Source of the DNA: a virus
Taxonomy: Duplodnaviria > Heunggongvirae > Uroviricota > Caudoviricetes
DNA: 31,925 nt
Virus record (IMG/VR): IMGVR_UViG_2917881069_000003
Span: 1 to 31,925 of that record
Reading direction: 5' to 3' (one strand)
Below are positions 5,710 to 25,919 of the stretch, in pieces. The position numbers were made by a program, and so were the translations under genes. How positions within the stretch are numbered: the stretch's first letter is position 1; each line of letters opens with the position of its first letter. A model generated the notes under the pieces. The model was given only the letters and a program-made list of their open reading frames with translations, was not told where the DNA came from and searched no databases.

Positions 5710-6900
5710 TTAATTGCTGTTAACCGAGGTGACCAGATTTGCCAGGTATTTATCGGTAATACGCTGGCGCAGGGTCAGGTTTTCAAGAGGAGGCACCGGG
5801 GTATAGTCGTAGTCGATATACAGTTTTCCGGCCTTGAGGGTTTCCGCATCGTTGGATTCTTCGCTGAACCAGCAGGTCGCATCCACGATATAGCCGTTTG
5901 TTTTCAGCTCACGGAATTTGGCATTGATACCGTCAACGATGTCGCGAATCAGCGTTGCGGTGATGGGCTTGTCCACCGCCCACATGTGCGCCTCAGCCAT
6001 CGTGTCGGCCAGCACCTGCGCGGTGCGGGTGTAGTTTTCAAAGAGGAACAGCGGGTCATCAGAGCAGGTACGGTTACCCCAGAATCGGAAACCGTCGCGG
6101 CGAATCAGCGTAGTGACGCCTGACTCGTTAAGCAGGTCAGCATCAGTGCCGGACTCCTGCAAATCCCAGAATACAGATGCGCTGATGCCGGTAACACCGT
6201 TTACCCCGACGTTGGACAGCGTTTTATGCCAGCCCTGCTCCTGGTCGATTTTAGCGCGCAGACCCAGCGCACGGGCGGTGGCATACGCGGTGGCGGTGGT
6301 GCTGGTGACCGTATCCCATGCGAGGAAATCCGGCCAGATGACCATCAGCTCACGCTGGCTGAAATTCTGGCGGTAGGCTTTCACCTCGGAAATGGTTTTA
6401 CAGCCCCATGCGCTGATATACCCGAAAGCGCGCAGCTTCTGACAGACAGATGCCAGTGCAACAGCCACCTCTTTGGTGTCCAGTCCCGGTACGCCGAGAA
6501 TACGCGGTTTAACACCGGTTACCGACTCCGCCGCCAGCAGGGCTTTCAGTCCGGTGTACTGACCGTTTTCGTCGGTGGTGCCGATGATATTGGAAACGGT
6601 CTGCGCGAGTTTCGTTTCCTCGTCGTCGCCGGTGCCGTCTTCCACACGCACGACAACGGTGACCGGTTTTGACTGGTCGGCGATGGCCTGCAACGATGCC
6701 GCCAGCGTGCCTTTTTTACCGGCCTTTGCAATTGCGCTCTGCACATTGGTAATCAGCACCGGTTTATTGAGGGGGAAGGTTTCCGCATCCGCATCGCTGG
6801 CCGTGCAGACCATGCCGACAATGGCAGTGGATACGGTGGAAATGACGCGGGTGCCGTCGTTAATCTCCAGCACCTGCACGCCGTGATGATAGTCACTCAT
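5710..6900 (-). CDS. FI: Contractile tail sheath protein FI (396 aa)
   Basis: Length and position as in P2 gpFI. Confidence 0.9.
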   Translation of the reverse strand: MSDYHHGVQVLEINDGTRVISTVSTAIVGMVCTASDADAETFPLNKPVLITNVQSAIAKAGKKGTLAASLQAIADQSKPVTVVVRVEDGTGDDEETKLAQTVSNIIGTTDENGQYTGLKALLAAESVTGVKPRILGVPGLDTKEVAVALASVCQKLRAFGYISAWGCKTISEVKAYRQNFSQRELMVIWPDFLAWDTVTSTTATAYATARALGLRAKIDQEQGWHKTLSNVGVNGVTGISASVFWDLQESGTDADLLNESGVTTLIRRDGFRFWGNRTCSDDPLFLFENYTRTAQVLADTMAEAHMWAVDKPITATLIRDIVDGINAKFRELKTNGYIVDATCWFSEESNDAETLKAGKLYIDYDYTPVPPLENLTLRQRITDKYLANLVTSVNSN

Positions 6901-7133
6901 CCGTTTAACTCCGTGGTTAATGGGTGCAACTATTTTCTGTTGTGCAAAGCATGAGACGCTATTTGACCTGGATGGTCAGTGTATGAAACAACAGATAAAG
7001 GAAAGGTGGGCAACTTGCCCGCCTCTATTTATTGCGGTATTCCCGGCCATTCAGGATTTGTCGCAGCTCATAATTACCTGCAAAGAAACAAAGAAAAGAT
7101 GAAAATACAAACTGTCTAGTACAAAGAAATCCA

Positions 7134-7358
7134 TCAGACTTCCAACACCCCATACACGTGCCCCCACCACGGTATGCTGCTCCGCTTCCCTTTGCGGATA
7201 TTTTCTATCCATCGACATTCAGTCAGGATATGCACGTGCGCGATGAAGAATGTACACACGACTATTGCCCTGTAAGCCCAGTTCCCGGTAAGAATAGCAA
7301 CCAGCATCTGCGCTGCTACAGCACAAAGCGAGTGTATATTTGGGGGAATATCCATCAT
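7134..7358 (-). CDS. Hypothetical small protein (74 aa) with hydrophobic segments, in the Z/fun-position island
   Basis: ORF with tandem ATG start and AAGAG-like RBS (short spacer); product has a long hydrophobic stretch (LCAVAAQMLVAILTGNWAYRAIVVCTFFIA). No recognisable family; could be non-coding. Confidence 0.25.
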   Translation of the reverse strand: MMDIPPNIHSLCAVAAQMLVAILTGNWAYRAIVVCTFFIAHVHILTECRWIENIRKGKRSSIPWWGHVYGVLEV

Positions 7359-7370
7359 AAACTCTTCGAC

Positions 7371-7395
7371 GAAACCACGCTGTGGTTTCTCTTGT
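7371..7395 (+). terminator. Candidate hairpin (8-bp stem gaaaccac/gtggtttc, 3-nt loop) followed by tctcttgtt
   Basis: Read directly from sequence; moderate U-tract only on the + strand. Confidence 0.3.
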
Positions 7396-7862
7396 TATCA
7401 AACCGAGCGGCATTATCACTAGGTTTACTAAATTGCCAGCTTCACTGTGAATGATATGCATGATAGAATCAGAGAATTAAATTATACAGAATTTAATCAA
7501 TTCCGCGTTTTATGCCCGTTGCTTCCACGGGCTCTTTTTAAAAAACCATCTATAATAAATAATTGCATTCACTTTTATTCCAATACAGAATAGAATATGA
7601 AATCATCAATTTGCACCATTAATTTTCAAATCTTCCCCGCTTTCGAGTAAATGCGGTTTTTTTATATGAGCACAACTTCACATTAACTATTTTTATACTT
7701 ATAATTTGCTTCGCTTAAAAATATTCAAAATGTACGCCAATAGATTTAATTATGTTGAACTTGTCACCAGCGAAACAATCACCACGCAAACAATCCCTCA
7801 TGTTAGTTATACTGTAATGCGTTGCAGTATGATGTACAGATGACTTCATTAAATCATGTCAC

Positions 7863-7911
7863 AATGTTCAGATATAATGCTTCATGTTATGAAGGTAGCG
7901 TTCTGAACATT
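7863..7911. promoter_or_regulatory. 10-bp inverted repeat (aatgttcaga ... tctgaacatt, arms about 29 bp apart) 30-80 bp upstream of the glycosyltransferase-like gene
   Basis: Read directly from sequence; sits in a roughly 480-bp very AT-rich leader (7460-7940). Possible operator or regulator-binding site. Confidence 0.3.
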
Positions 7912-7942
7912 CATAAACATTGTTAACGTTAGAGGTTGCATA

Positions 7943-9232
7943 ATGAAAACCGATATCACTGCCATGTCTGAAAATATAGTGGAATTCTTTGAACAAACAA
8001 CACTGCATGATTACATCAAAAAAACATGGCTATACAATGAAAATTGCTTCGTTATTGATTTCGAATACAAAGGCGTGAAATTTGCATTAGATTTCACAGC
8101 CAGCCAACCAGGTGTAAACGTGGATTTTGTTCTACGAAATAATTACTCTTTTTATACTATAAAAGGCAATACTAAAAAAGAAAACATTTCATCTTCTGCT
8201 ATTTTAACAGCAGCCCTGCAAGCTTCTCTTCTAAAAATCACAACGGTAATTAATGAAATTAATTCTATTTATCCCTTTGATGTCTCAGTTATTATTCCGG
8301 TTCACAACCGAGAAACCCTTATTCTCGAATGCATTAAATCTTTAAACAATCAGACTATAGATAAAAATTGTTTTGAAGTTATTTTCATTGATGACTGTTC
8401 CACTGACAGGAGCATTGCCGCCATTGAATATAACATTTCGAGAGAAATAAATTATCGTATTATCCGTAGAGAAGTTGGTTCAGGAAATGCATCAGCGCCG
8501 CGAAATGAGGGAATAAAATCCGCAAAAGGTCGTTATGTGTTTTTCTTAGATTCTGATGATTCCATTCACTCTGACTTACTGTCCGATGGCATTCAGATGG
8601 CTTATAAAAATAATAGTGACATTGTATATTTCAAGCAGGTTTCCTCTACAGGAAGAGGGGTTCCCGTACGCCCATTTAAGGCAGACACAAATAAAGCGGA
8701 CATTATAAAAAACCATCTTTTCAGATCATTAAAAATCTTCAAGCTCTTTAAAAAAGAGTTACTAATCAATAATAACATCTTATTTAACCCATCAATTTCA
8801 GTCTATGAGGACATGCTTTTTTCTTGCCAAGCTCTAACTGTAGCTAATACGATATCTATACTGGCAAGAAAAGGCTACTACTCTCTGAATCGCCATGAAG
8901 AACCACATCTATCTAAAACATCTTTCTCCATTAAACAAAGAGTCTTAGTATTACAAACAGGTTTGATTTATATCTTATCAAGTAATAAAAATGAAGCAGA
9001 AATAGTAAAAATGTTTAATGCGTGGTTGGTTATTTGCGTTGAACACCTGGCATCCATATTATCCAAAAAAAGTTTAACAACTAATGAGAAATCTCATATT
9101 TTCAACTTGATACATAAATCATTCTTACCATATACAGGGTTTGTAAATGAGCCCCAAATATATCCCGCACAAAGAGAGCTGGTCAGTTGTTTAATCTGTG
9201 GAGATTATTCTTCTTTTTGCGAAAAAATATAA
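7943..9232 (+). CDS. Family-2 (GT-A fold) glycosyltransferase-like protein with unrecognised N- and C-terminal domains (429 aa)
   Basis: ATG with AGAGG RBS 7 nt upstream. GT2 motifs seen in translation: VSVIIPVHN, FIDDCSTD, SAPRNEG, FFLDSDD (DXD at nt 8549-8560), YED. Visibly AT-rich relative to the phage backbone and on the opposite strand to both flanking late operons. Confidence 0.8.
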   Translation: MKTDITAMSENIVEFFEQTTLHDYIKKTWLYNENCFVIDFEYKGVKFALDFTASQPGVNVDFVLRNNYSFYTIKGNTKKENISSSAILTAALQASLLKITTVINEINSIYPFDVSVIIPVHNRETLILECIKSLNNQTIDKNCFEVIFIDDCSTDRSIAAIEYNISREINYRIIRREVGSGNASAPRNEGIKSAKGRYVFFLDSDDSIHSDLLSDGIQMAYKNNSDIVYFKQVSSTGRGVPVRPFKADTNKADIIKNHLFRSLKIFKLFKKELLINNNILFNPSISVYEDMLFSCQALTVANTISILARKGYYSLNRHEEPHLSKTSFSIKQRVLVLQTGLIYILSSNKNEAEIVKMFNAWLVICVEHLASILSKKSLTTNEKSHIFNLIHKSFLPYTGFVNEPQIYPAQRELVSCLICGDYSSFCEKI

Positions 9233-9278
9233 AGAACACTTAGCTACAGATACTCCTCACTTTGTATCTGACGCATTT

Positions 9279-9310
9279 ACCCCTCACTCTAAATTAAGGG
9301 GGAGGGGTTT
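9279..9310 (+). terminator. Weak candidate terminator hairpin downstream of the glycosyltransferase-like gene
   Basis: cccctc ... gagggg stem followed by gtttcat; imperfect, long loop. Confidence 0.25.
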
Positions 9311-9454
9311 CATAAAAATAATTATCTGATGTTATTTTTATGTGTCATCACGTCTTTTTTAACTCCAGTTGTTACGGGGAGGACAGTGACTCGTATCAAC
9401 TAAAGTTTGATCTGTAGATAACACTATTTTAAGCAGATACTCATTAAGGCTTGT

Positions 9455-9892
9455 TTATTCTGAAGTCTCCAACTTCATCAAACGACGATTTAAGTCAACA
9501 AAACGTTCCATTAACAAATCCACCTGGCTGACAACAGCACGTAGACACCACCAGAGAAGCTCCTCTTTCCGGAAGCGATAACGGCTTCCAGCTTCGGTTG
9601 CAGGGCGAACAAGAACCCTTTCCGCCTGTCGGGTAAGCACACGGGTTGTCCCGCTCAACAGCTCCCCTTCATCCGAATAAATCGCTGGCTGAACCGGAAT
9701 ATCTTCATACTCTTCCGGTATATCTTCGTACTGTGCCTCCTCCGCTTCCCACGAATCCAGACAAAATGCGCTGTATTTCCGCCAGTCCAGACCGTGTTTC
9801 TCCATCACGGCTATCGCGGCCTGGACTGTCGGCCCGGCGTGCAGACGCGCGTCCTCGCCCTCCTCCTCAATTCTCTGTAACCAGCGCCACAC
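9455..9892 (-). CDS. Hypothetical protein (up to 145 aa) directly downstream of tail fibre H; possible tail fibre assembly/chaperone of a non-P2-G type
   Basis: Occupies the position of P2 G but shows no resemblance to P2 gpG as I recall it; acidic, EE/EY-rich. The ORF-track start is a GTG with a poor RBS; the first ATG is 29 codons in (9805), so the start is uncertain. Confidence 0.45.
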   Translation of the reverse strand: MWRWLQRIEEEGEDARLHAGPTVQAAIAVMEKHGLDWRKYSAFCLDSWEAEEAQYEDIPEEYEDIPVQPAIYSDEGELLSGTTRVLTRQAERVLVRPATEAGSRYRFRKEELLWWCLRAVVSQVDLLMERFVDLNRRLMKLETSE

Positions 9893-9960
9893 CCCCGGAA
9901 GCCGTGCTATTTCTGCAAATGCCGCGTTTTCGGCTGCCGTCGCATCGCGCGGTGTATCCT

Positions 9961-12312
9961 TTACGTCGCATCCGACACAACGGTCGGCGAGTTGCAGAGA
10001 TACACGCTCCGGAACGCTTTGTTGGGCGCACCCAGGTCGCTGGTATTGTTAACCGATGGCCGGAATGCGCCGTTAATATCTGTATCCATCTGCATGAATG
10101 CAGTGCCGTCACTACGGGCTGCAATTACATAAGCGTCAGCAGAATCGTCATAAATACCCAGATTCCCGGCTGTTGATACCTGGAAAGCTCCCGCCTTCAG
10201 CGTGGTGCTGATGGCCATGCGCTTCTGGGTTTCGTCATCCGATTTAATATTCACGCCCTGCAGGTATGCCACATTCCAGCGATTTGGCGATGACCCCAGA
10301 TTCATTGCCTTGTCCTGGTCGGGATGAAATGACGGCGAGACCGGACTCAATAATACAGACCAGGTCTCACTGCCATCGGTACAATAAAGCCTTGTGCGTC
10401 CCGCCGACTGAGTATCGTTCATTGAGTAAAGGTTAATCCCGCCACCGCTCAACAAATCCACGTCAGCGCGTATTTCCAGACAATCGTGCACGGCGTTCAG
10501 GCGGTGTTTCCACTGAACGTAGCGGCCTGTGTATTCTCCGGTTCGGAACGCATCCCCGAACAAACGAAAAACAGCAGCAGAAGTGTCTGTATCCGGAGCC
10601 TCCTTTCTGACCTCAAATAACGGGCGATGCGAGCGCAGATTCTGCTCATAGGCTGCCACCTGGAAGTCTTCATTGGGTGACAGGGCTATATTTACAGCAT
10701 TAGGACTCAGAAAAAGGCTGGCATGGCTGTCAGGAAACGCCACGCCGGAGTCCACCAGATAGCCTGTGCCGTCGTAAGCCTCCACGGAAACCACAGCTTT
10801 GCTGCGTTTTGTCGCCACGCCACACGTATAAGACTTCGTGGCATCATATTTCGTTGCAGCCGCCGTTCCATATGCTGTAGGCGTCCAGTAAGATGGATTC
10901 ACCGGAGAACGGCCAGAAAAATTTGTTGCACGTGCTGCAAAGTATGCCCCCTCAAAAGAAACCACATCGGCTGTCTGACACCAGAAATCCATATCGAGCA
11001 GATACAGTTTTCCGTTATGGAGAGCCAGCCCTTCGGCTTCCTGCAAAACGGGATACCCCAGCTCTGCATTCCCCAGCATTTTCTGGCGACCATACCTGGC
11101 ACGAACGCCATCCACATTGAACTGTCTGACAACTTCGCCCGTTGACAGGTTATATACAACAATGCGGTGAGTCAGAAATACGCCTGTATAACCGTAATAA
11201 GCAAACAGATAATGACCATCGCTGGCCATCCCCTGAAATGCCTGCGACACCATTGGCTGGGTGGACAGATAAATCCGGTGTTTAAACGTCAGAGAGGCGC
11301 GATCGAAAACATAAACTGTGCGGCGATCATCCCTGTTGTAATGAAGATGGACGGCCTCATCACCTGACTGAACAATTAACAGGCTTCCGTCTGCCGACAA
11401 TGCCACCGTTATAATTTCATCCCCGGTAAAAAAGTCAGAGGTGAAAATCTCCGTACGGGTGACATCTGTCAGACTGGTGTCAGCCCCATTCCAGTTGATG
11501 ATATTCACACCCTTGCCGTCAGCGGTCGGGGTATACAGCATCACGCGACCGTCTTCACATACAGCCCCGATACTCTGGTGACCAATATCAGCGAAAACGG
11601 GAGAAAACGAAATGACCGTCGGGTTTTCGTTTTCTCCGTCAGGGTTAAATGTCGTTTCAACAATCCTTACGCCACCCGATACAGGCTGATGCAGAAACAT
11701 TCGGGTTCCCTGCGGCGTATCACAGATACAGAACCCCTGGCTCATCTTATCCGCGCCGTCAAAAATCCCGGCGTAGTCAATATCGTGGACAACTTTATGC
11801 TGAAGAACCACATCATCAATGACAGTACGATGAAGACTGGATATGGCTTTGTCGACGTAATCCTGCGTCGCCATCACTGTGCTGGCATCAATACTCAGCT
11901 CAACGGACGCCACGTTACTGACAATAATAACCATGCGGCAGGTCTGCGCACGTCCGGAACCTTCAGCCAGTTCAGGCTTATAGCTTTCCGCCATGTTGGC
12001 GACCGCAATCAGTGTTCCGGCATCGTCATACAGACCAAGCTCACGCATCCAGAAGCCGCCCACATCTGGCGGTACAACCAGTTCAGCCACAATATAGTTT
12101 TTATTCTTATTATCCACGCTGACTTTATTCAGGGCATGACGCCAGACCTCATGCACCAGCTTCGTCTGACCGGCATCCGGCACCGGCAATTTGCCATTAC
12201 CGTCACCCACGGCCATTGCAGACAGGTTTACTTTTTTCCCGCCGGGGACAGTGGCGGCTGCCAGCTTTGCGGCTCCGGCAGTAGTGATAACGGTTTTAAA
12301 TTTCGTGCTCAT
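9961..12312 (-). CDS. H: Tail fibre protein H (783 aa); conserved P2-like N-terminal part (about 160 aa) with a divergent distal region
   Basis: N-terminus MSTKFKTVITTAGAAKLAAAT... matches P2 gpH; the remainder is unrelated to the P2 gpH distal region as I recall it, and the protein is longer than P2's 669 aa. Confidence 0.85.
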   Translation of the reverse strand: MSTKFKTVITTAGAAKLAAATVPGGKKVNLSAMAVGDGNGKLPVPDAGQTKLVHEVWRHALNKVSVDNKNKNYIVAELVVPPDVGGFWMRELGLYDDAGTLIAVANMAESYKPELAEGSGRAQTCRMVIIVSNVASVELSIDASTVMATQDYVDKAISSLHRTVIDDVVLQHKVVHDIDYAGIFDGADKMSQGFCICDTPQGTRMFLHQPVSGGVRIVETTFNPDGENENPTVISFSPVFADIGHQSIGAVCEDGRVMLYTPTADGKGVNIINWNGADTSLTDVTRTEIFTSDFFTGDEIITVALSADGSLLIVQSGDEAVHLHYNRDDRRTVYVFDRASLTFKHRIYLSTQPMVSQAFQGMASDGHYLFAYYGYTGVFLTHRIVVYNLSTGEVVRQFNVDGVRARYGRQKMLGNAELGYPVLQEAEGLALHNGKLYLLDMDFWCQTADVVSFEGAYFAARATNFSGRSPVNPSYWTPTAYGTAAATKYDATKSYTCGVATKRSKAVVSVEAYDGTGYLVDSGVAFPDSHASLFLSPNAVNIALSPNEDFQVAAYEQNLRSHRPLFEVRKEAPDTDTSAAVFRLFGDAFRTGEYTGRYVQWKHRLNAVHDCLEIRADVDLLSGGGINLYSMNDTQSAGRTRLYCTDGSETWSVLLSPVSPSFHPDQDKAMNLGSSPNRWNVAYLQGVNIKSDDETQKRMAISTTLKAGAFQVSTAGNLGIYDDSADAYVIAARSDGTAFMQMDTDINGAFRPSVNNTSDLGAPNKAFRSVYLCNSPTVVSDAT

Positions 12313-24370: not shown

Positions 24371-25237
24371 ATGAAAAAAGTATATGAACTAACCAGTGAA
24401 GAAGCACTGTCATATTTTCTTCGCCATGATTCCTACACAACCTTAGAATTGCCAGCATATATTAATTTCGCTACGTTATTAAATAATATTAATTCGTCTA
24501 TCCATAACAAAAAAATTAAAATTGAACCAACCGCCAAAGACCTGATGGGTAAAAATATCAATTATGAGGTGCTTGTCAGTAAAGATGGACTATATAGCTG
24601 GCGCAGGATAACACTTATCAATCCTCTTTATTATGTCTACTTCTGTAGAAAAATCACAGCACCAACAACTTGGGAAATCATAACAGAAAAATTCAAATCT
24701 TTTGAATCAAACGACCTTTTTACATGTTCAAGCATCCCCGTCAGGAAAGACGACTCATCAAACATTGCGGCGTCAGTAATGAATTGGTGGGGAGATTTTG
24801 AACAAAAAAGCCTTGCCCTTGCTCTTGAATATGAATTCATGTTCAGCACTGATATCTCAAACTTCTACCCATCAATATATACTCATAGTTTTGAATGGGT
24901 ATTCATATCAAAAGAAGAGGCAAAGAAGAAAAAAGACAAAAACAACCCTGGCCGATTAATTGACAACCACATTCAAATGATGATGAACAATCAGACAAAT
25001 GGTATTCCACTCGGCAGCACATTGATGGATACTTTTGCTGAGCTTATCCTGGGTAAAATCGATATAGAATTAAGAAAAAAAACTAACGAATTCAAGATTA
25101 CAAACTACAAGGTTGTACGTTACCGTGATGATTACCGGATTTTTTCTAATAGTAAAGATGATTTAGACATAATATCCAAATGTTTAGTCAACGTGTTAGG
25201 TGATTTTGGTTTAGATCTAAAACTCAAAAAAAACTGA
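24371..25237 (+). CDS. Reverse transcriptase domain ORF of an Abi-P2/AbiK-like RT (288 aa as sequenced; N-terminal part of a roughly 515-codon gene)
   Basis: RT catalytic motifs in the translation: STDISNFYPSI (motif A, nt 24845-24877), GIPLGSTLMDTFAELIL (motif B, 25001-25051), VRYRDDYRIF (YxDD motif C, 25115-25144). The ORF ends at a TGA immediately after an A8 run. Confidence 0.75.
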   Translation: MKKVYELTSEEALSYFLRHDSYTTLELPAYINFATLLNNINSSIHNKKIKIEPTAKDLMGKNINYEVLVSKDGLYSWRRITLINPLYYVYFCRKITAPTTWEIITEKFKSFESNDLFTCSSIPVRKDDSSNIAASVMNWWGDFEQKSLALALEYEFMFSTDISNFYPSIYTHSFEWVFISKEEAKKKKDKNNPGRLIDNHIQMMMNNQTNGIPLGSTLMDTFAELILGKIDIELRKKTNEFKITNYKVVRYRDDYRIFSNSKDDLDIISKCLVNVLGDFGLDLKLKKN

Positions 25238-25253
25238 GCTATATGAAGATATT

Positions 25254-25919
25254 GTGCTTCACTCCTTGAAACAAGCCAAAAAAGACTATATCAAAGAAAA
25301 AAGACACAAGTCACTCCAGAAAATGCTCTACTCAATATATTTACTCTCACTAAAACATCCAAACTCGAAAACAATCGTTAGATATCTCAATGATTTTCTT
25401 AGAAAATTATTTAGAATGAATACAATTACAGATAACGGTCACCAAATAGATGCCATGCTTGGTATTATTTCAAGCATCATGGCAAAAAACCCTACAACGT
25501 ACCCAGCAGGAACTGCCATTTTCTCAAAACTCCTCAGTTTTCTTTATACTGACGACACATATCCTAAATTCAAAAAACTAGAACAACTCCATAAAAAACT
25601 TGCTAAGCAACCCAATACAGAAATGCTTGATATATGGTTTCAGCGAATTCAAGCAAAAATAAACCCAGAGTGGGAAAGCTCTTATAAGTCAGCTCTATGC
25701 GTCCGTGTAAATGATGAACTCACGAAAAAGAAAACAGTTTCTGAAAATAATTTATGGAATATTGACTGGATTCCAGGAAAAGAAACGAACAGAAACAAAG
25801 CCCAAATATTATCATTACTAACGAAAACAAAAATTGTTGATGCAGAAAAATTTGAGAAAATGGATAATGACATAATACCCGAAGAAGTTGATTTATTCTT
25901 TAAAGAATACAGCAATTAA
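25254..25919 (+). CDS. C-terminal alpha-helical domain ORF of the same RT (221 aa as sequenced, in another frame; ORF-track start is a GTG)
   Basis: The frame is open from 25221. Removing one A from the A8 run at 25226-25233 joins it to the upstream ORF as ...LDLKLKKTELYEDIVLHSLKQ... Lys/Leu-rich helical composition typical of the C-terminal domains of Abi-type RTs. Confidence 0.6.
   Translation: MLHSLKQAKKDYIKEKRHKSLQKMLYSIYLLSLKHPNSKTIVRYLNDFLRKLFRMNTITDNGHQIDAMLGIISSIMAKNPTTYPAGTAIFSKLLSFLYTDDTYPKFKKLEQLHKKLAKQPNTEMLDIWFQRIQAKINPEWESSYKSALCVRVNDELTKKKTVSENNLWNIDWIPGKETNRNKAQILSLLTKTKIVDAEKFEKMDNDIIPEEVDLFFKEYSN

What the first reader, a model, noticed from the sequence alone, without database searches (positions are those of the whole stretch)
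6901..9454. Orphan GT2 glycosyltransferase-like gene with two unrecognised flanking domains in the P2 Z/fun cargo hotspot
Between the FI start (6900) and the gene downstream of the tail fibre (9455), where P2 carries Z/fun, there is about 2.5 kb of visibly AT-rich DNA unlike the phage backbone. It holds one long + strand gene (7943-9232, good RBS) transcribed against both flanking late operons, behind a roughly 480-bp AT-rich leader. Residues about 113-300 carry the GT-A family-2 signature (VSVIIPVHN, FIDDCSTD, SAPRNEG, FFLDSDD, YED). The 110-aa N-terminal and 130-aa C-terminal domains match nothing I recognise, and there is no GtrA/GtrC-type partner or obvious membrane anchor. This locus is a known hypervariable hotspot for anti-phage and lysogenic-conversion cargo in P2-like prophages. 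I cannot assign this gene to a described defence or conversion system, so it is a candidate novel function: modification of a surface glycan used as a phage receptor, or glycosylation of an invading phage component.
Basis: partly seen in the sequence, partly recalled or inferred. Interest (0 to 1): 0.82.

Follow-up and report, generated by a model that had tools for sequence, protein, structure and literature searches.

The report
Prophage TarS-like capsule glycosyltransferase gene
A P2-like prophage of an Escherichia strain carries a cargo gene for a sugar-adding enzyme of the type that decorates teichoic acids in Staphylococcus, most likely to re-coat a ribitol-phosphate capsule, and in E. 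coli relatives (including E. coli B) the same gene is switched on and off by a hypervariable 4-base repeat that this copy lacks.

Summary

In four taxa, non-phage homologues lie inside ABC-transporter capsule loci beside CDP-ribitol synthase and TagF-like genes. E. coli B has exactly that capsule module but no such transferase; its P2 prophage supplies one. Divergent alleles fill the gtrABC/neuO slot of P22-like prophages.

In E. coli the gene carries a (CAGC)n tract at codon 52 (n = 5-70), is full-length only when n is a multiple of 3, and varies among E. coli B sublines. The window has CAGCCAGCCAAC and so is fixed ON.

Best reading: lysogenic conversion of a teichoic-acid-like capsule. No chemistry was tested, and one carrier lineage has a different capsule locus.

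The parts
6901..7024 (.). P2 backbone upstream of the sheath gene FI; left edge of the cargo
   Evidence: This is the only part of 6901-9454 conserved in P2-like phage records, at 92-94% identity in 57 records. It contains a bidirectional hairpin at 7004-7024.
7025..9454 (.). Cargo island (moron) between the sheath gene and the tail-fibre gene
   Evidence: GC 0.354 against 0.530 for the rest of the window. It is absent from all 50,697 phage records. It is present whole in 29 of 5426 complete E. coli genomes, always in P2-like prophages.
7134..7358 (-). Small 74-aa ORF (phrog_1443, function unknown, hydrophobic core) that travels with the transferase gene
   Evidence: phrog_1443 at E 3e-21. Homology between the window and the P22-like locus L017 runs from 7127 to 8098. 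No Pfam or PADLOC match.
7514..7532 (+). Terminator-like hairpin plus T-run, insulating the transferase promoter from upstream transcription
   Evidence: Found by the terminator scan. Conserved in the P2-type, P22-like (CUVM3) and kps-borne copies.
7635..7663 (+). Second hairpin plus T-run (CCCCGC...GCGG TTTTTTT); the stem is weaker here than in relatives
   Evidence: Read from the sequence. Relatives have CCCCGC...GCGGGG followed by a T-run. The scan did not call it in this window.
7677..7705 (+). Sigma-70-like promoter TTCACA-17-TATAAT (11 of 12 consensus positions)
   Evidence: Best promoter-like site in the region. The -10 hexamer is invariant and the -35 nearly so across P2-type, P22-like and kps-borne copies. 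Function is inferred, not shown.
7931..7935 (+). Ribosome-binding site AGAGG, 8 nt before the ATG
   Evidence: Read from the sequence. TAGAG is invariant in all six aligned leaders.
7943..9232 (+). Glycosyltransferase gene, 429 aa, intact
   Evidence: ORF. Identical to WP_240782738.1 of Escherichia sp. E2661. dN/dS against the E. coli B allele is 0.157 (370 codons after the tract site) and 0.079 (51 codons before it).
7943..8275 (+). N-terminal accessory alpha/beta domain (residues 1-111): two helices, a five-stranded sheet and a long linker helix
   Evidence: AF2 model with pLDDT about 80-96. No Pfam match. Homologous to the C-terminal domain of the Campylobacter/Psychrobacter proteins: hhalign probability 97.8%, E 8e-13, 78 columns.
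8097..8108 (+). Unexpanded repeat site CAGCCAGCCAAC (codons 52-56, loop between strands 45-53 and 58-64). E. coli alleles carry (CAGC)5-70 here.
   Evidence: Window n = 2 perfect units plus CAAC, in frame. Loop position from the model. The tract sits at the identical site in 17 P2-type and 2 P22-like alleles and in 4 IMG/VR contigs.
8276..9229 (+). TarS/TarP/RmlT-type module (residues 112-429): GT-A catalytic subdomain plus helical subdomain
9455..12312 (-). Adjacent, convergent tail-fibre gene (tail-collar N-terminus, unassigned centre, S74 chaperone C-terminus), frameshifted in this window
   Evidence: 98.3% identical to the 952-aa E. coli B fibre with one 1-nt gap. PF12571 and PF13884 match. 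Every phage-borne copy of the transferase sits convergent to a receptor-binding protein with an S74 chaperone end.

Best explanation
The gene is a lysogenic-conversion moron. It encodes a soluble, cytoplasmic, inverting GT-A glycosyltransferase of the TarS/TarP/RmlT type.

Expression would come from its own sigma-70-type promoter in the lysogen (inferred). The enzyme would use a nucleotide sugar (identity unknown) and the DxD-bound metal to add a sugar to a ribitol hydroxyl of a teichoic-acid-like, ribitol-phosphate-containing group 2 (ABC-transporter-dependent) capsule polymer. This would happen on the cytoplasmic face, before KpsMT export, in the way TarS and TarP decorate wall teichoic acid before TarGH export.

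The expected result is a changed K antigen. That would alter recognition by capsule-targeting phages, plausibly including the prophage's own neighbouring tail fibre, and by antibodies.

The N-terminal 110-aa domain is an accessory, possibly oligomerisation or polymer-binding, domain. Its hairpin loop at residues 54-57 is where E. coli alleles carry (CAGC)n. There, slipped-strand changes in n switch the full-length enzyme ON (n a multiple of 3, inserting SQPA repeats in the loop) or OFF. The window's allele has only CAGCCAGCCAAC and is therefore constitutively in frame.

Shown here: fold, catalytic residues, genomic contexts, tract polymorphism and its frame logic, and purifying selection.

Inferred: acceptor, donor, expression, phenotype, and the capsule type of the window's own host.
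For: **Enzyme class**
- TarS E 8e-40 over residues 114-353; TarP 1e-31; RmlT 8e-20.
- The AF2 model is confident: pLDDT 93.7, pTM 0.90.
- The DxD motif and the Glu-Asp catalytic pair are invariant. Their roles in TarS and RmlT are described in PMC5156392 and PMC11697029.
- No transmembrane segment is predicted.

**Acceptor, by gene association**
- In C. coli, Psychrobacter immobilis, a metagenomic contig and E. coli kps loci, the homologue sits next to a fused IspD+SDR CDP-ribitol synthase and TagF-like transferases, inside capsule-export clusters.
- E. coli B kps region 2 encodes orthologues of that module at 37-79% amino-acid identity but no transferase of this family. Its P2 prophage carries one.
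- Of the 29 complete E. coli genomes with the P2-borne gene, 18 are among the 51 of 5426 with B-type region 2: Fisher p 4e-31, or 2e-16 without the B lineage.
- Three of the 4 genomes with the P22-like allele also have B-type region 2.

**Conversion role**
- The gene is always convergent to the phage receptor-binding protein, in three phage types.
- In P22-like prophages at argW it occupies the intS-tailspike slot of gtrABC/neuO.
- The promoter and insulating terminators are conserved.
- dN/dS is 0.08-0.16.

**Phase variation in relatives**
- n = 7 to 66 in 17 P2-type alleles. The six full-length ORFs are the five with uninterrupted tracts where n mod 3 = 0 and DETEC-P881, whose tract is interrupted.
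- E. coli B sublines differ: 7, 10, 21, 34, 35, 45.
- n = 47 and 70 in P22-like alleles.
- Short-read contigs break at the tract.
Against: - No biochemical or phenotypic evidence exists for this or any family member that I could find.
- The window has no host flanks, so the capsule type of Escherichia sp. E2661 is unknown.
- The ON fraction (6 of 17) is what neutral drift of n would give.
- The association test is not corrected for phylogeny.
- In capsule loci, the homologue could be a backbone-forming rather than a decorating transferase.
- TarS phosphate-binding residues H253 and R258 could not be mapped. The family consensus basic motif VERxR is VEHLA in the window protein.
- The window's prophage looks partly decayed: the fibre gene is frameshifted and AbiP2 is split.
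Confidence: 0.6

Rival explanations
1. The enzyme is a lysogenic-conversion transferase, but its acceptor is not the capsule. It would decorate another cytoplasmically assembled glycan, such as an Und-PP-linked O-antigen unit (some E. coli O antigens contain ribitol or glycerol phosphate) or the LPS core.
For: At least one carrier lineage has a non-ribitol capsule locus yet keeps the gene, sometimes ON. Secondary PHROG matches are labelled 'GtrB-like O-antigen conversion' (phrog_22739, E 1e-32). P22-like phages classically convert O antigen at this slot.
Against: The closest structures are all poly-RboP polymer transferases, and they share the helical acceptor subdomain. All five non-phage contexts are ABC-transporter capsule loci with CDP-ribitol synthase, and none is an O-antigen cluster. 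Co-occurrence with B-type kps region 2 is strong.
Confidence: 0.2
2. The gene is a passenger with no current function in this prophage: a capsule-locus gene captured by recombination next to the fibre gene and now drifting.
For: The window's prophage has a frameshifted fibre gene and a split AbiP2. kps loci and phage fibre fragments are visibly mixed: there is a tail-fibre-assembly remnant beside the gene in the AF16 kps locus and a phage-RBD-like gene in the E. coli B kps locus. The ON fraction is about one third.
Against: The ORF is intact and all catalytic residues are kept. dN/dS is 0.08-0.16 on both sides of the tract site. The promoter, terminators and RBS are conserved across three genomic contexts. 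The gene recurs in three phage types.
Confidence: 0.1
3. The enzyme glycosylates the phage's own virion, for example the adjacent tail fibre, rather than a host polymer.
For: It is always next to the receptor-binding protein gene. Virion glycosylation exists in some phages (own knowledge).
Against: It is transcribed in the opposite direction to the late operon, from a sigma-70-type promoter behind terminators. Homologues in chromosomal capsule loci have no phage context. TarS-type enzymes act on polyol-phosphate polymers.
Confidence: 0.05
4. It is an anti-phage defence gene that glycosylates an invading phage component or DNA, as suggested by its position in the P2 defence hotspot.
For: The Z/fun locus often holds defence cargo (own knowledge). 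The other hotspot of this same prophage holds AbiP2.
Against: No PADLOC model matches any ORF of the island. The fold and the gene associations point to a polysaccharide acceptor. There is no nuclease, sensor or partner gene.
Confidence: 0.03

Closest known systems
TarP and TarS of Staphylococcus aureus (and RmlT of Listeria monocytogenes): wall-teichoic-acid glycosyltransferases
   Same: - Same DxD motif and Glu-Asp catalytic pair.
- Soluble and cytoplasmic.
- Genomic partnership with CDP-ribitol synthase and TagF-family polymerases.
- TarP, like this gene, is carried by prophages (own knowledge; Gerlach et al. 2018 is not held in the library).
   Different: - The host is Gram-negative, and the presumed acceptor is a lipid-anchored group 2 capsule, not peptidoglycan-linked teichoic acid.
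- It lacks the TarS C-terminal trimerisation domains and the RmlT oligomerisation domain. Instead it has a 110-aa accessory domain at the N-terminus, which is C-terminal in Campylobacter and Psychrobacter homologues.
- Donor sugar and linkage position are unknown.
- E. coli alleles are phase-variable through an intragenic repeat, which TarS and TarP are not.
[quoted passage not shown]
   Same: - A prophage-borne enzyme that modifies a group 2 capsule polymer in the cytoplasm.
- It lies in the integrase-tailspike slot of P22-like prophages; the tailspikes beside this family end in an endosialidase-type S74 chaperone. That the CUS-3 spike is an endosialidase is own knowledge.
[quoted passage not shown] The NeuO copy number ranges from 2 to 93 (PMC3046976). 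The range seen here is 2 to 70.
   Different: - NeuO is a left-handed beta-helix acetyltransferase acting on polysialic acid. This protein is a GT2 glycosyltransferase.
- The repeat unit is 7 nt (AAGACTC) directly after the start codon in neuO. Here it is 4 nt (CAGC) at codon 52, inside a domain loop.
- This gene also occurs in P2-like prophages and in kps loci.
- The window's allele has no expanded tract.
GtrABC O-antigen glucosylation operons of P22-like and other temperate phages
   Same: Lysogenic-conversion cargo in the same prophage slot, in L015 at argW next to intS. Weak PHROG similarity to GtrB-like families. Changes a surface glycan used as a phage receptor.
   Different: Gtr works in the periplasm through a lipid-linked sugar and needs three membrane proteins: the flippase GtrA, membrane-bound GtrB and serotype-specific GtrC. 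Here there is a single soluble enzyme with no transmembrane segment and no partner genes. Salmonella gtr phase variation is epigenetic (own knowledge), not repeat-based.
Tetranucleotide-repeat contingency loci of Haemophilus influenzae and Neisseria (e.g. lic2A, lgtC, and modA with AGCC repeats) - recalled from own knowledge
   Same: An intragenic tetranucleotide tract near the 5' end of a surface-glycan transferase gene. ON/OFF state follows frame. Tract length differs between closely related isolates. (CAGC)n is a cyclic permutation of (AGCC)n.
   Different: It is found in Escherichia, where such loci are regarded as rare, and on prophages. Switching rates have not been measured. It does not apply to the window's own allele.

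Membership tests
Glycosyltransferase family 2 (GT-A fold, inverting) | Pfam PF00535 match above the gathering score | tested here: met
   101.8 bits against a cut-off of 23.3, residues 115-247.
Glycosyltransferase family 2 (GT-A fold, inverting) | DxD metal/nucleotide-sugar motif and a catalytic acidic residue | tested here: met
   D203-S-D205-D206 and E289-D290 are invariant in 78 homologues. They align with TarS D91/D93/D94 and E177/D178.
TarS/TarP/RmlT-type polyol-phosphate polymer glycosyltransferases | Catalytic GT-A subdomain followed by the shared helical subdomain | tested here: met
   [not shown]
TarS/TarP/RmlT-type polyol-phosphate polymer glycosyltransferases | Genomic partnership with ribitol-phosphate polymer synthesis genes (CDP-ribitol synthase TarI/TarJ, TagF/TarL-family transferase) | tested here: met
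   [not shown]
TarS/TarP/RmlT-type polyol-phosphate polymer glycosyltransferases | Transfers a sugar to ribitol hydroxyls of poly-ribitol-phosphate | not testable with these tools
   Requires an enzyme assay or polymer chemistry. The phosphate-binding residues TarS H253/R258 could not be mapped without a structural superposition.
TarS/TarP/RmlT-type polyol-phosphate polymer glycosyltransferases | C-terminal oligomerisation domain (the TarS tandem domains after residue 349; the RmlT oligomerisation and turret subdomains) | tested here: not met
   The protein ends with the helical subdomain. The match to full-length TarS covers only about half of the target (TMt 0.49). A different 110-aa accessory domain is present at the N-terminus.
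GtrABC O-antigen glucosylation system | Three membrane proteins: GtrA flippase, membrane-anchored GtrB, and GtrC | tested here: not met
   There is a single gene in the island and no other ORF with a family match except phrog_1443. No transmembrane segment is predicted. The best GtrB-like PHROG reaches only E 1e-32, against 1e-250 for its own family.
Repeat-driven phase-variable (contingency) gene, NeuO-like | Expanded intragenic simple-sequence tract whose length varies between close relatives and sets the reading frame | tested here: not met
   The window has only 2 perfect CAGC units plus CAAC, in frame. The feature is met in E. coli alleles: n = 5-70, full-length only when n mod 3 = 0, and differing among E. 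coli B sublines.
Known anti-phage defence systems (PADLOC-DB 2.0) | Match of any island protein to a defence-system model | tested here: not met
   Zero families for the transferase and for three small ORFs.
P2 Z/fun hotspot cargo (moron between tail-fibre genes and FI) | Non-backbone DNA of deviant composition between the conserved FI upstream region and the fibre genes of a P2-like prophage | tested here: met
   The backbone ends at 7024. P2 gene order in the window is ogr-D-U-T-E-FII-FI / cargo / fibre-I-J-W-V. GC is 0.35 against 0.53.

The most novel reading that the evidence does not exclude
This gene family is a previously undescribed, prophage-borne capsule-conversion system of Escherichia, the Gram-negative counterpart of staphylococcal TarP. 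In E. coli it has become a true tetranucleotide contingency locus: (CAGC)n at codon 52, with n up to 70, changing even among laboratory sublines of E. coli B. On this reading, temperate phages of three morphotypes carry it next to their receptor-binding protein to switch glycosylation of a teichoic-acid-like K antigen stochastically, and so switch susceptibility to capsule-targeting phages and antibodies. The window's allele would be the unexpanded, always-ON form.
Probability: 0.4. Interest if true: 0.72.

Novelty: new member of a known kind. Interest (0 to 1): 0.5.

Why it matters
If the reading is right, four things follow.

- **Serotype genetics.** Part of E. coli K-antigen structure would be encoded outside the kps locus on mobile prophages, as with NeuO for K1. 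A recent in-silico K-typing study notes that genes differentiating some serotypes must lie outside the capsule cluster, and its text never mentions prophages (PMC13171606).
- **Cross-kingdom parallel.** The TarP principle, in which a prophage re-glycosylates a ribitol-phosphate polymer to change immune and phage recognition, would extend from Gram-positive cell walls to Gram-negative capsules.
- **Phage therapy and vaccines.** It would help explain heterogeneous susceptibility to capsule-dependent phages, which bears on phage therapy and on glycoconjugate vaccine antigens.
- **A contingency locus in a workhorse strain.** The E. coli alleles would give an easily testable tetranucleotide contingency locus in a species thought to have very few, one that is present in the standard strain E. 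coli B.

There is also a practical annotation point. The tract breaks short-read assemblies, so databases hold mostly "partial" 370-379-aa versions of the protein.

Tried and rejected
- **Single-sequence AF2 model.** pLDDT was 40, so it was unusable. It was replaced by a model built on a 78-sequence alignment.
- **Phage record search.** No INPHARED record contains the island.
- **Defence-system and RNA scans.** PADLOC gave nothing. Rfam gave nothing credible: one snoRNA match at E 0.12. Tandem-repeat search in the window itself found no tract.
- **AF16-type kps region 2 in carriers.** I tested whether hosts of the P2-borne gene share it. Only 2 genomes have it, so this was rejected. The B-type region 2 was the relevant one.
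- **Polyol-phosphate capsule in the other 11 carriers.** I tested whether the carriers without B-type region 2 have another such capsule. The two I could locate by synteny do not. This stays as evidence against a strict coupling.
- **Shared receptor-binding domain next to the transferase.** The P2-type fibre and the P22-like spikes share only the S74 chaperone end, at about 30% identity. Their centres match a beta-propeller receptor-binding domain only weakly: Pfam E 0.035 for the window fibre and no hit for two spikes. I treat this as a lead, not a result.
- **TarS phosphate-binding residues H253/R258.** The HMMER alignment ends at TarS residue 241, so no claim is made.
- **Literature.** I found no paper on this gene, on a (CAGC)n tract in E. 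coli, or on a glycosyltransferase in the P2 hotspot. The TarP paper (Nature 2018) is not held in the library.
- **Rejected functions.** A GtrB-like function was rejected because there is no membrane anchor and no partners. Anti-phage defence and virion glycosylation were rejected as primary readings, for the reasons given under the rival explanations.


Full report
**1. The observation**

The window is almost a complete P2-like prophage. It matches contig PDIG01000018.1 of GCA_004745185.1, Escherichia sp. E2661.

The sheath gene FI is 5710-6900 on the minus strand, and the tail-fibre gene ends at 9455. Between them the GC content falls from 0.52-0.59 to 0.29-0.38. The cargo 7025-9454 has GC 0.354, against 0.530 for the rest of the window.

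Only 6901-7024 is shared with P2-like phage genomes.

The island holds one long ORF, 7943-9232 on the plus strand, encoding 429 aa. It has an AGAGG ribosome-binding site.

Two details need correcting:
- The ORF at 9455-9892 is the S74-chaperone end of the fibre gene itself. In this window the fibre gene is split by a 1-nt deletion relative to the 952-aa E. coli B fibre.
- The best promoter-like site lies about 240 nt upstream of the ATG, not 480 nt.

**2. What the protein is**

It is not an orphan. A database search gave 1857 homologues, and it has its own PHROG family (phrog_22088, E 1e-250).

By sequence, the closest solved structures are:

| Structure | E-value | Notes |
|---|---|---|
| S. 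aureus TarS | 8e-40 | residues 114-353 |
| S. aureus TarP | 1e-31 | |
| L. monocytogenes RmlT | 8e-20 | |

These three enzymes glycosylate the poly-ribitol-phosphate chain of wall teichoic acid (PMC5156392 and PMC11697029).

An AlphaFold model built on a 78-sequence alignment is confident (pLDDT 93.7, pTM 0.90).
- In Foldseek, the top 44 PDB hits are all TarS, TarP or RmlT.

So the "unrecognised" C-terminal 130 aa is the helical subdomain that TarS, TarP and RmlT share.

D203/D205/D206 align with TarS D91/D93/D94. E289-D290 align with the TarS E177-D178 pair, in which D178 is the proposed catalytic base. All of these are invariant in the family.

There is no transmembrane segment and no PADLOC match.

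The N-terminal 110 aa folds as two helices, a five-stranded sheet and a long linker helix. It has no Pfam match, but it is conserved in 23 homologues. In the Campylobacter and Psychrobacter branch the same domain sits at the C-terminus instead (hhalign probability 97.8%, E 8e-13). It is therefore a movable accessory domain of the family. Its role is unknown; oligomerisation or polymer binding are guesses.

**3. Where the family lives**

Non-phage homologues sit inside ABC-transporter (group 2-like) capsule loci. They lie next to a fused IspD+SDR enzyme (a CDP-ribitol synthase of the TarI/TarJ type) and TagF-like transferases. This is seen in:
- Campylobacter coli
- Psychrobacter immobilis
- a metagenomic contig
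- E. coli kps region 2

E. coli B REL606 has the orthologous capsule module. It consists of a TagF-like gene, tarI-[IS1]-tarJ and a second TagF-related gene, at 37-79% amino-acid identity to the genes flanking the transferase in those four loci. It has no transferase of this family in its kps locus. Its P2-like prophage carries one, at 93% nucleotide identity to the window.

Across 5426 complete E. coli genomes:
- 29 carry the P2-borne island.
- 51 carry the B-type region 2.
- 18 genomes have both. Fisher p is 4e-31, or 2e-16 with the B lineage removed. Neither is corrected for phylogeny.

This is the main basis for proposing a ribitol-phosphate capsule as the acceptor.

**4. The phage contexts**

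Divergent alleles (54-64% identity) sit in P22-like prophages between intS and the tailspike. In one case this is at argW, which is the slot used by gtrABC and by neuO of CUS-3.

A Leclercia prophage of a third type has a homologue at its end, again next to a spike.

In every phage context the gene is convergent to a receptor-binding protein with an endosialidase-type S74 chaperone end.

The leader is conserved across P2-type, P22-like and kps-borne copies. It comprises two terminator-like hairpins, a TTCACA-17-TATAAT promoter with an invariant -10 hexamer, and the ribosome-binding site. This fits a lysogen-expressed moron.

dN/dS between the window and the E. coli B allele is 0.157 after the repeat site and 0.079 before it.

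**5.

In E. coli, codon 52 is followed by a perfect (CAGC)n tract.

Sixteen of the 17 P2-type alleles from complete genomes have an uninterrupted tract, with n = 7, 7, 10, 11, 11, 13, 15, 19, 20, 21, 34, 35, 45, 59, 60 and 66. The seventeenth, DETEC-P881, has an interrupted tract.

The ORF is full-length (450-540 aa) in six alleles: the five uninterrupted tracts with n divisible by 3, plus DETEC-P881.

Assemblies of sublines of the single laboratory strain E. coli B differ in n:

| Subline | n | State |
|---|---|---|
| REL606 | 7 | OFF |
| AS19 | 10 | OFF |
| ATCC 11303 | 21 | ON |
| B-RalR | 34 | OFF |
| B | 35 | OFF |
| B-DolR | 45 | ON |

All length differences are multiples of 4 nt.

The P22-like alleles have n = 47 and 70 at the same site. 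IMG/VR contigs have n = 5, 5, 19 and at least 23. Short-read contigs break exactly there, which explains the many "partial" 370-379-aa database entries.

In frame, the tract encodes SQPA repeats. The model places them in the hairpin loop between strands 45-53 and 58-64.

The first 51 codons are nearly identical between P2-type and P22-like alleles (dN 0.033), although the rest of the gene has diverged (dN 0.37). This suggests a shared 5' cassette.

The window has CAGCCAGCCAAC, which is two perfect units and one degenerate unit, in frame. It is therefore a fixed-ON or unexpanded allele. The kps-borne copy has ACCGCCAACCAG.

[quoted passage not shown] It has a heptanucleotide repeat of 2-93 copies in the 5' coding region that switches K1 capsule O-acetylation (PMC3046976).

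I found no paper describing this transferase or its tract.

**6. Most likely mechanism**

I commit to the following at confidence 0.6. The gene is a lysogenic-conversion enzyme that adds a sugar to the ribitol of a teichoic-acid-like K capsule in the cytoplasm before export. It thereby changes the receptor seen by capsule-targeting phages, plausibly including the prophage's own fibre, and by antibodies.

- **Shown:** enzyme class, catalytic residues, gene associations, promoter conservation, purifying selection, and repeat polymorphism with its frame logic.
- **Inferred:** acceptor, donor sugar, expression and phenotype.

A broader statement is considerably safer, at roughly 0.8: this is a surface-polysaccharide-modifying conversion gene.

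The rivals are:
- another glycan acceptor, such as O antigen or LPS core (0.2)
- a drifting passenger gene (0.1)
- virion glycosylation (0.05)
- anti-phage defence (0.03)

**7. Comparison and novelty**

The gene works like TarP: a prophage-borne GT2 that re-decorates a ribitol-phosphate polymer. In E. coli it is regulated like NeuO.

It meets the fold and catalytic criteria of the TarS/TarP group. It lacks their oligomerisation domains, and its acceptor is untested. I therefore file it as a new member of a known kind, prophage-encoded surface-polymer glycosyltransferases, and not as a new system.

The more novel element is the tetranucleotide contingency tract in Escherichia prophages, including E. 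coli B. That tract lies outside the window's own allele.

Interest 0.5. For a specialist, the window's gene is a well-explained moron of a recognisable family. The family-level story is unexpected and directly testable.

Noticed in passing
window 9455-12312 (-): The tail-fibre gene carries a 1-nt deletion relative to the 952-aa E. coli B fibre (98.3% identity, one gap). It reads as 783-aa and 145-aa ORFs. The prophage may be defective, or the assembly may carry an error.
   Followed up: partly
window 24371-25237 and 25254-25919 (+): The second P2 cargo hotspot holds an AbiP2-type defence reverse transcriptase (PADLOC DRT; E 3e-110 and 7e-41). It is split into two ORFs covering profile positions 4-286 and 296-487 of 489, so it is probably interrupted.
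   Followed up: partly
L001-L008 and L033-L041 (E. coli P2-type alleles, tract starting 154 nt after the ATG); L015 4810-4997; L016 4718-4997: A perfect (CAGC)n tract lies inside the transferase gene, with n = 5-70. The ORF is full-length only when n is a multiple of 3. n differs among sublines of E. coli B (7, 10, 21, 34, 35, 45). One strain (CP029371) has two such genes, with n = 59 and 47.
   Followed up: yes
L024 20551-21510 (E. coli B REL606 kps region 2, ECB_RS14905): A 319-aa protein with a signal peptide, encoded inside the capsule locus, matches the phage five-bladed beta-propeller receptor-binding domain (PF21311, E 2e-15) and the tail fibre of S. aureus phage P68 (E 1e-4). It is weakly similar to the central parts of all the fibres and spikes that sit beside the transferase. 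This hints at exchange between capsule loci and phage receptor-binding genes.
   Followed up: partly
L018 3918-4019 and L019 3914-4042 (E. coli kps region 2): A remnant of a phage tail-fibre-assembly gene lies directly upstream of the kps-borne copy of the transferase. In L030/L031, IS fragments lie upstream instead. The gene seems to have moved between phages and the capsule locus.
   Followed up: partly
window 7943-8095 compared with L015 4656-4808: The first 51 codons (and about 30 nt upstream) are nearly identical between P2-type and P22-like alleles (dN 0.033), while the rest of the gene is only 54% identical (dN 0.37). The 5' end together with the repeat site behaves as a shared cassette.
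   Followed up: partly
window 7134-7358 (-): A small hydrophobic 74-aa ORF (phrog_1443, unknown function) accompanies the transferase in P2-type loci and in one P22-like locus (homology 7127-8098 with L017). It has no Pfam or PADLOC match.
   Followed up: partly
L009-L014 (contig ends): More than 20 short-read E. coli assemblies end within a few bases of the repeat site. As a result, public databases list the protein mostly as 'partial' or as a 370-379-aa product that starts after the tract.
   Followed up: yes
L017 3630-4858: In strains CUVM3 and CPww7, an IS3-family element has replaced the 5' end of the P22-like copy of the transferase. The same genomes keep a P2-borne copy, which is ON with n = 15 in CUVM3.
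   Followed up: no
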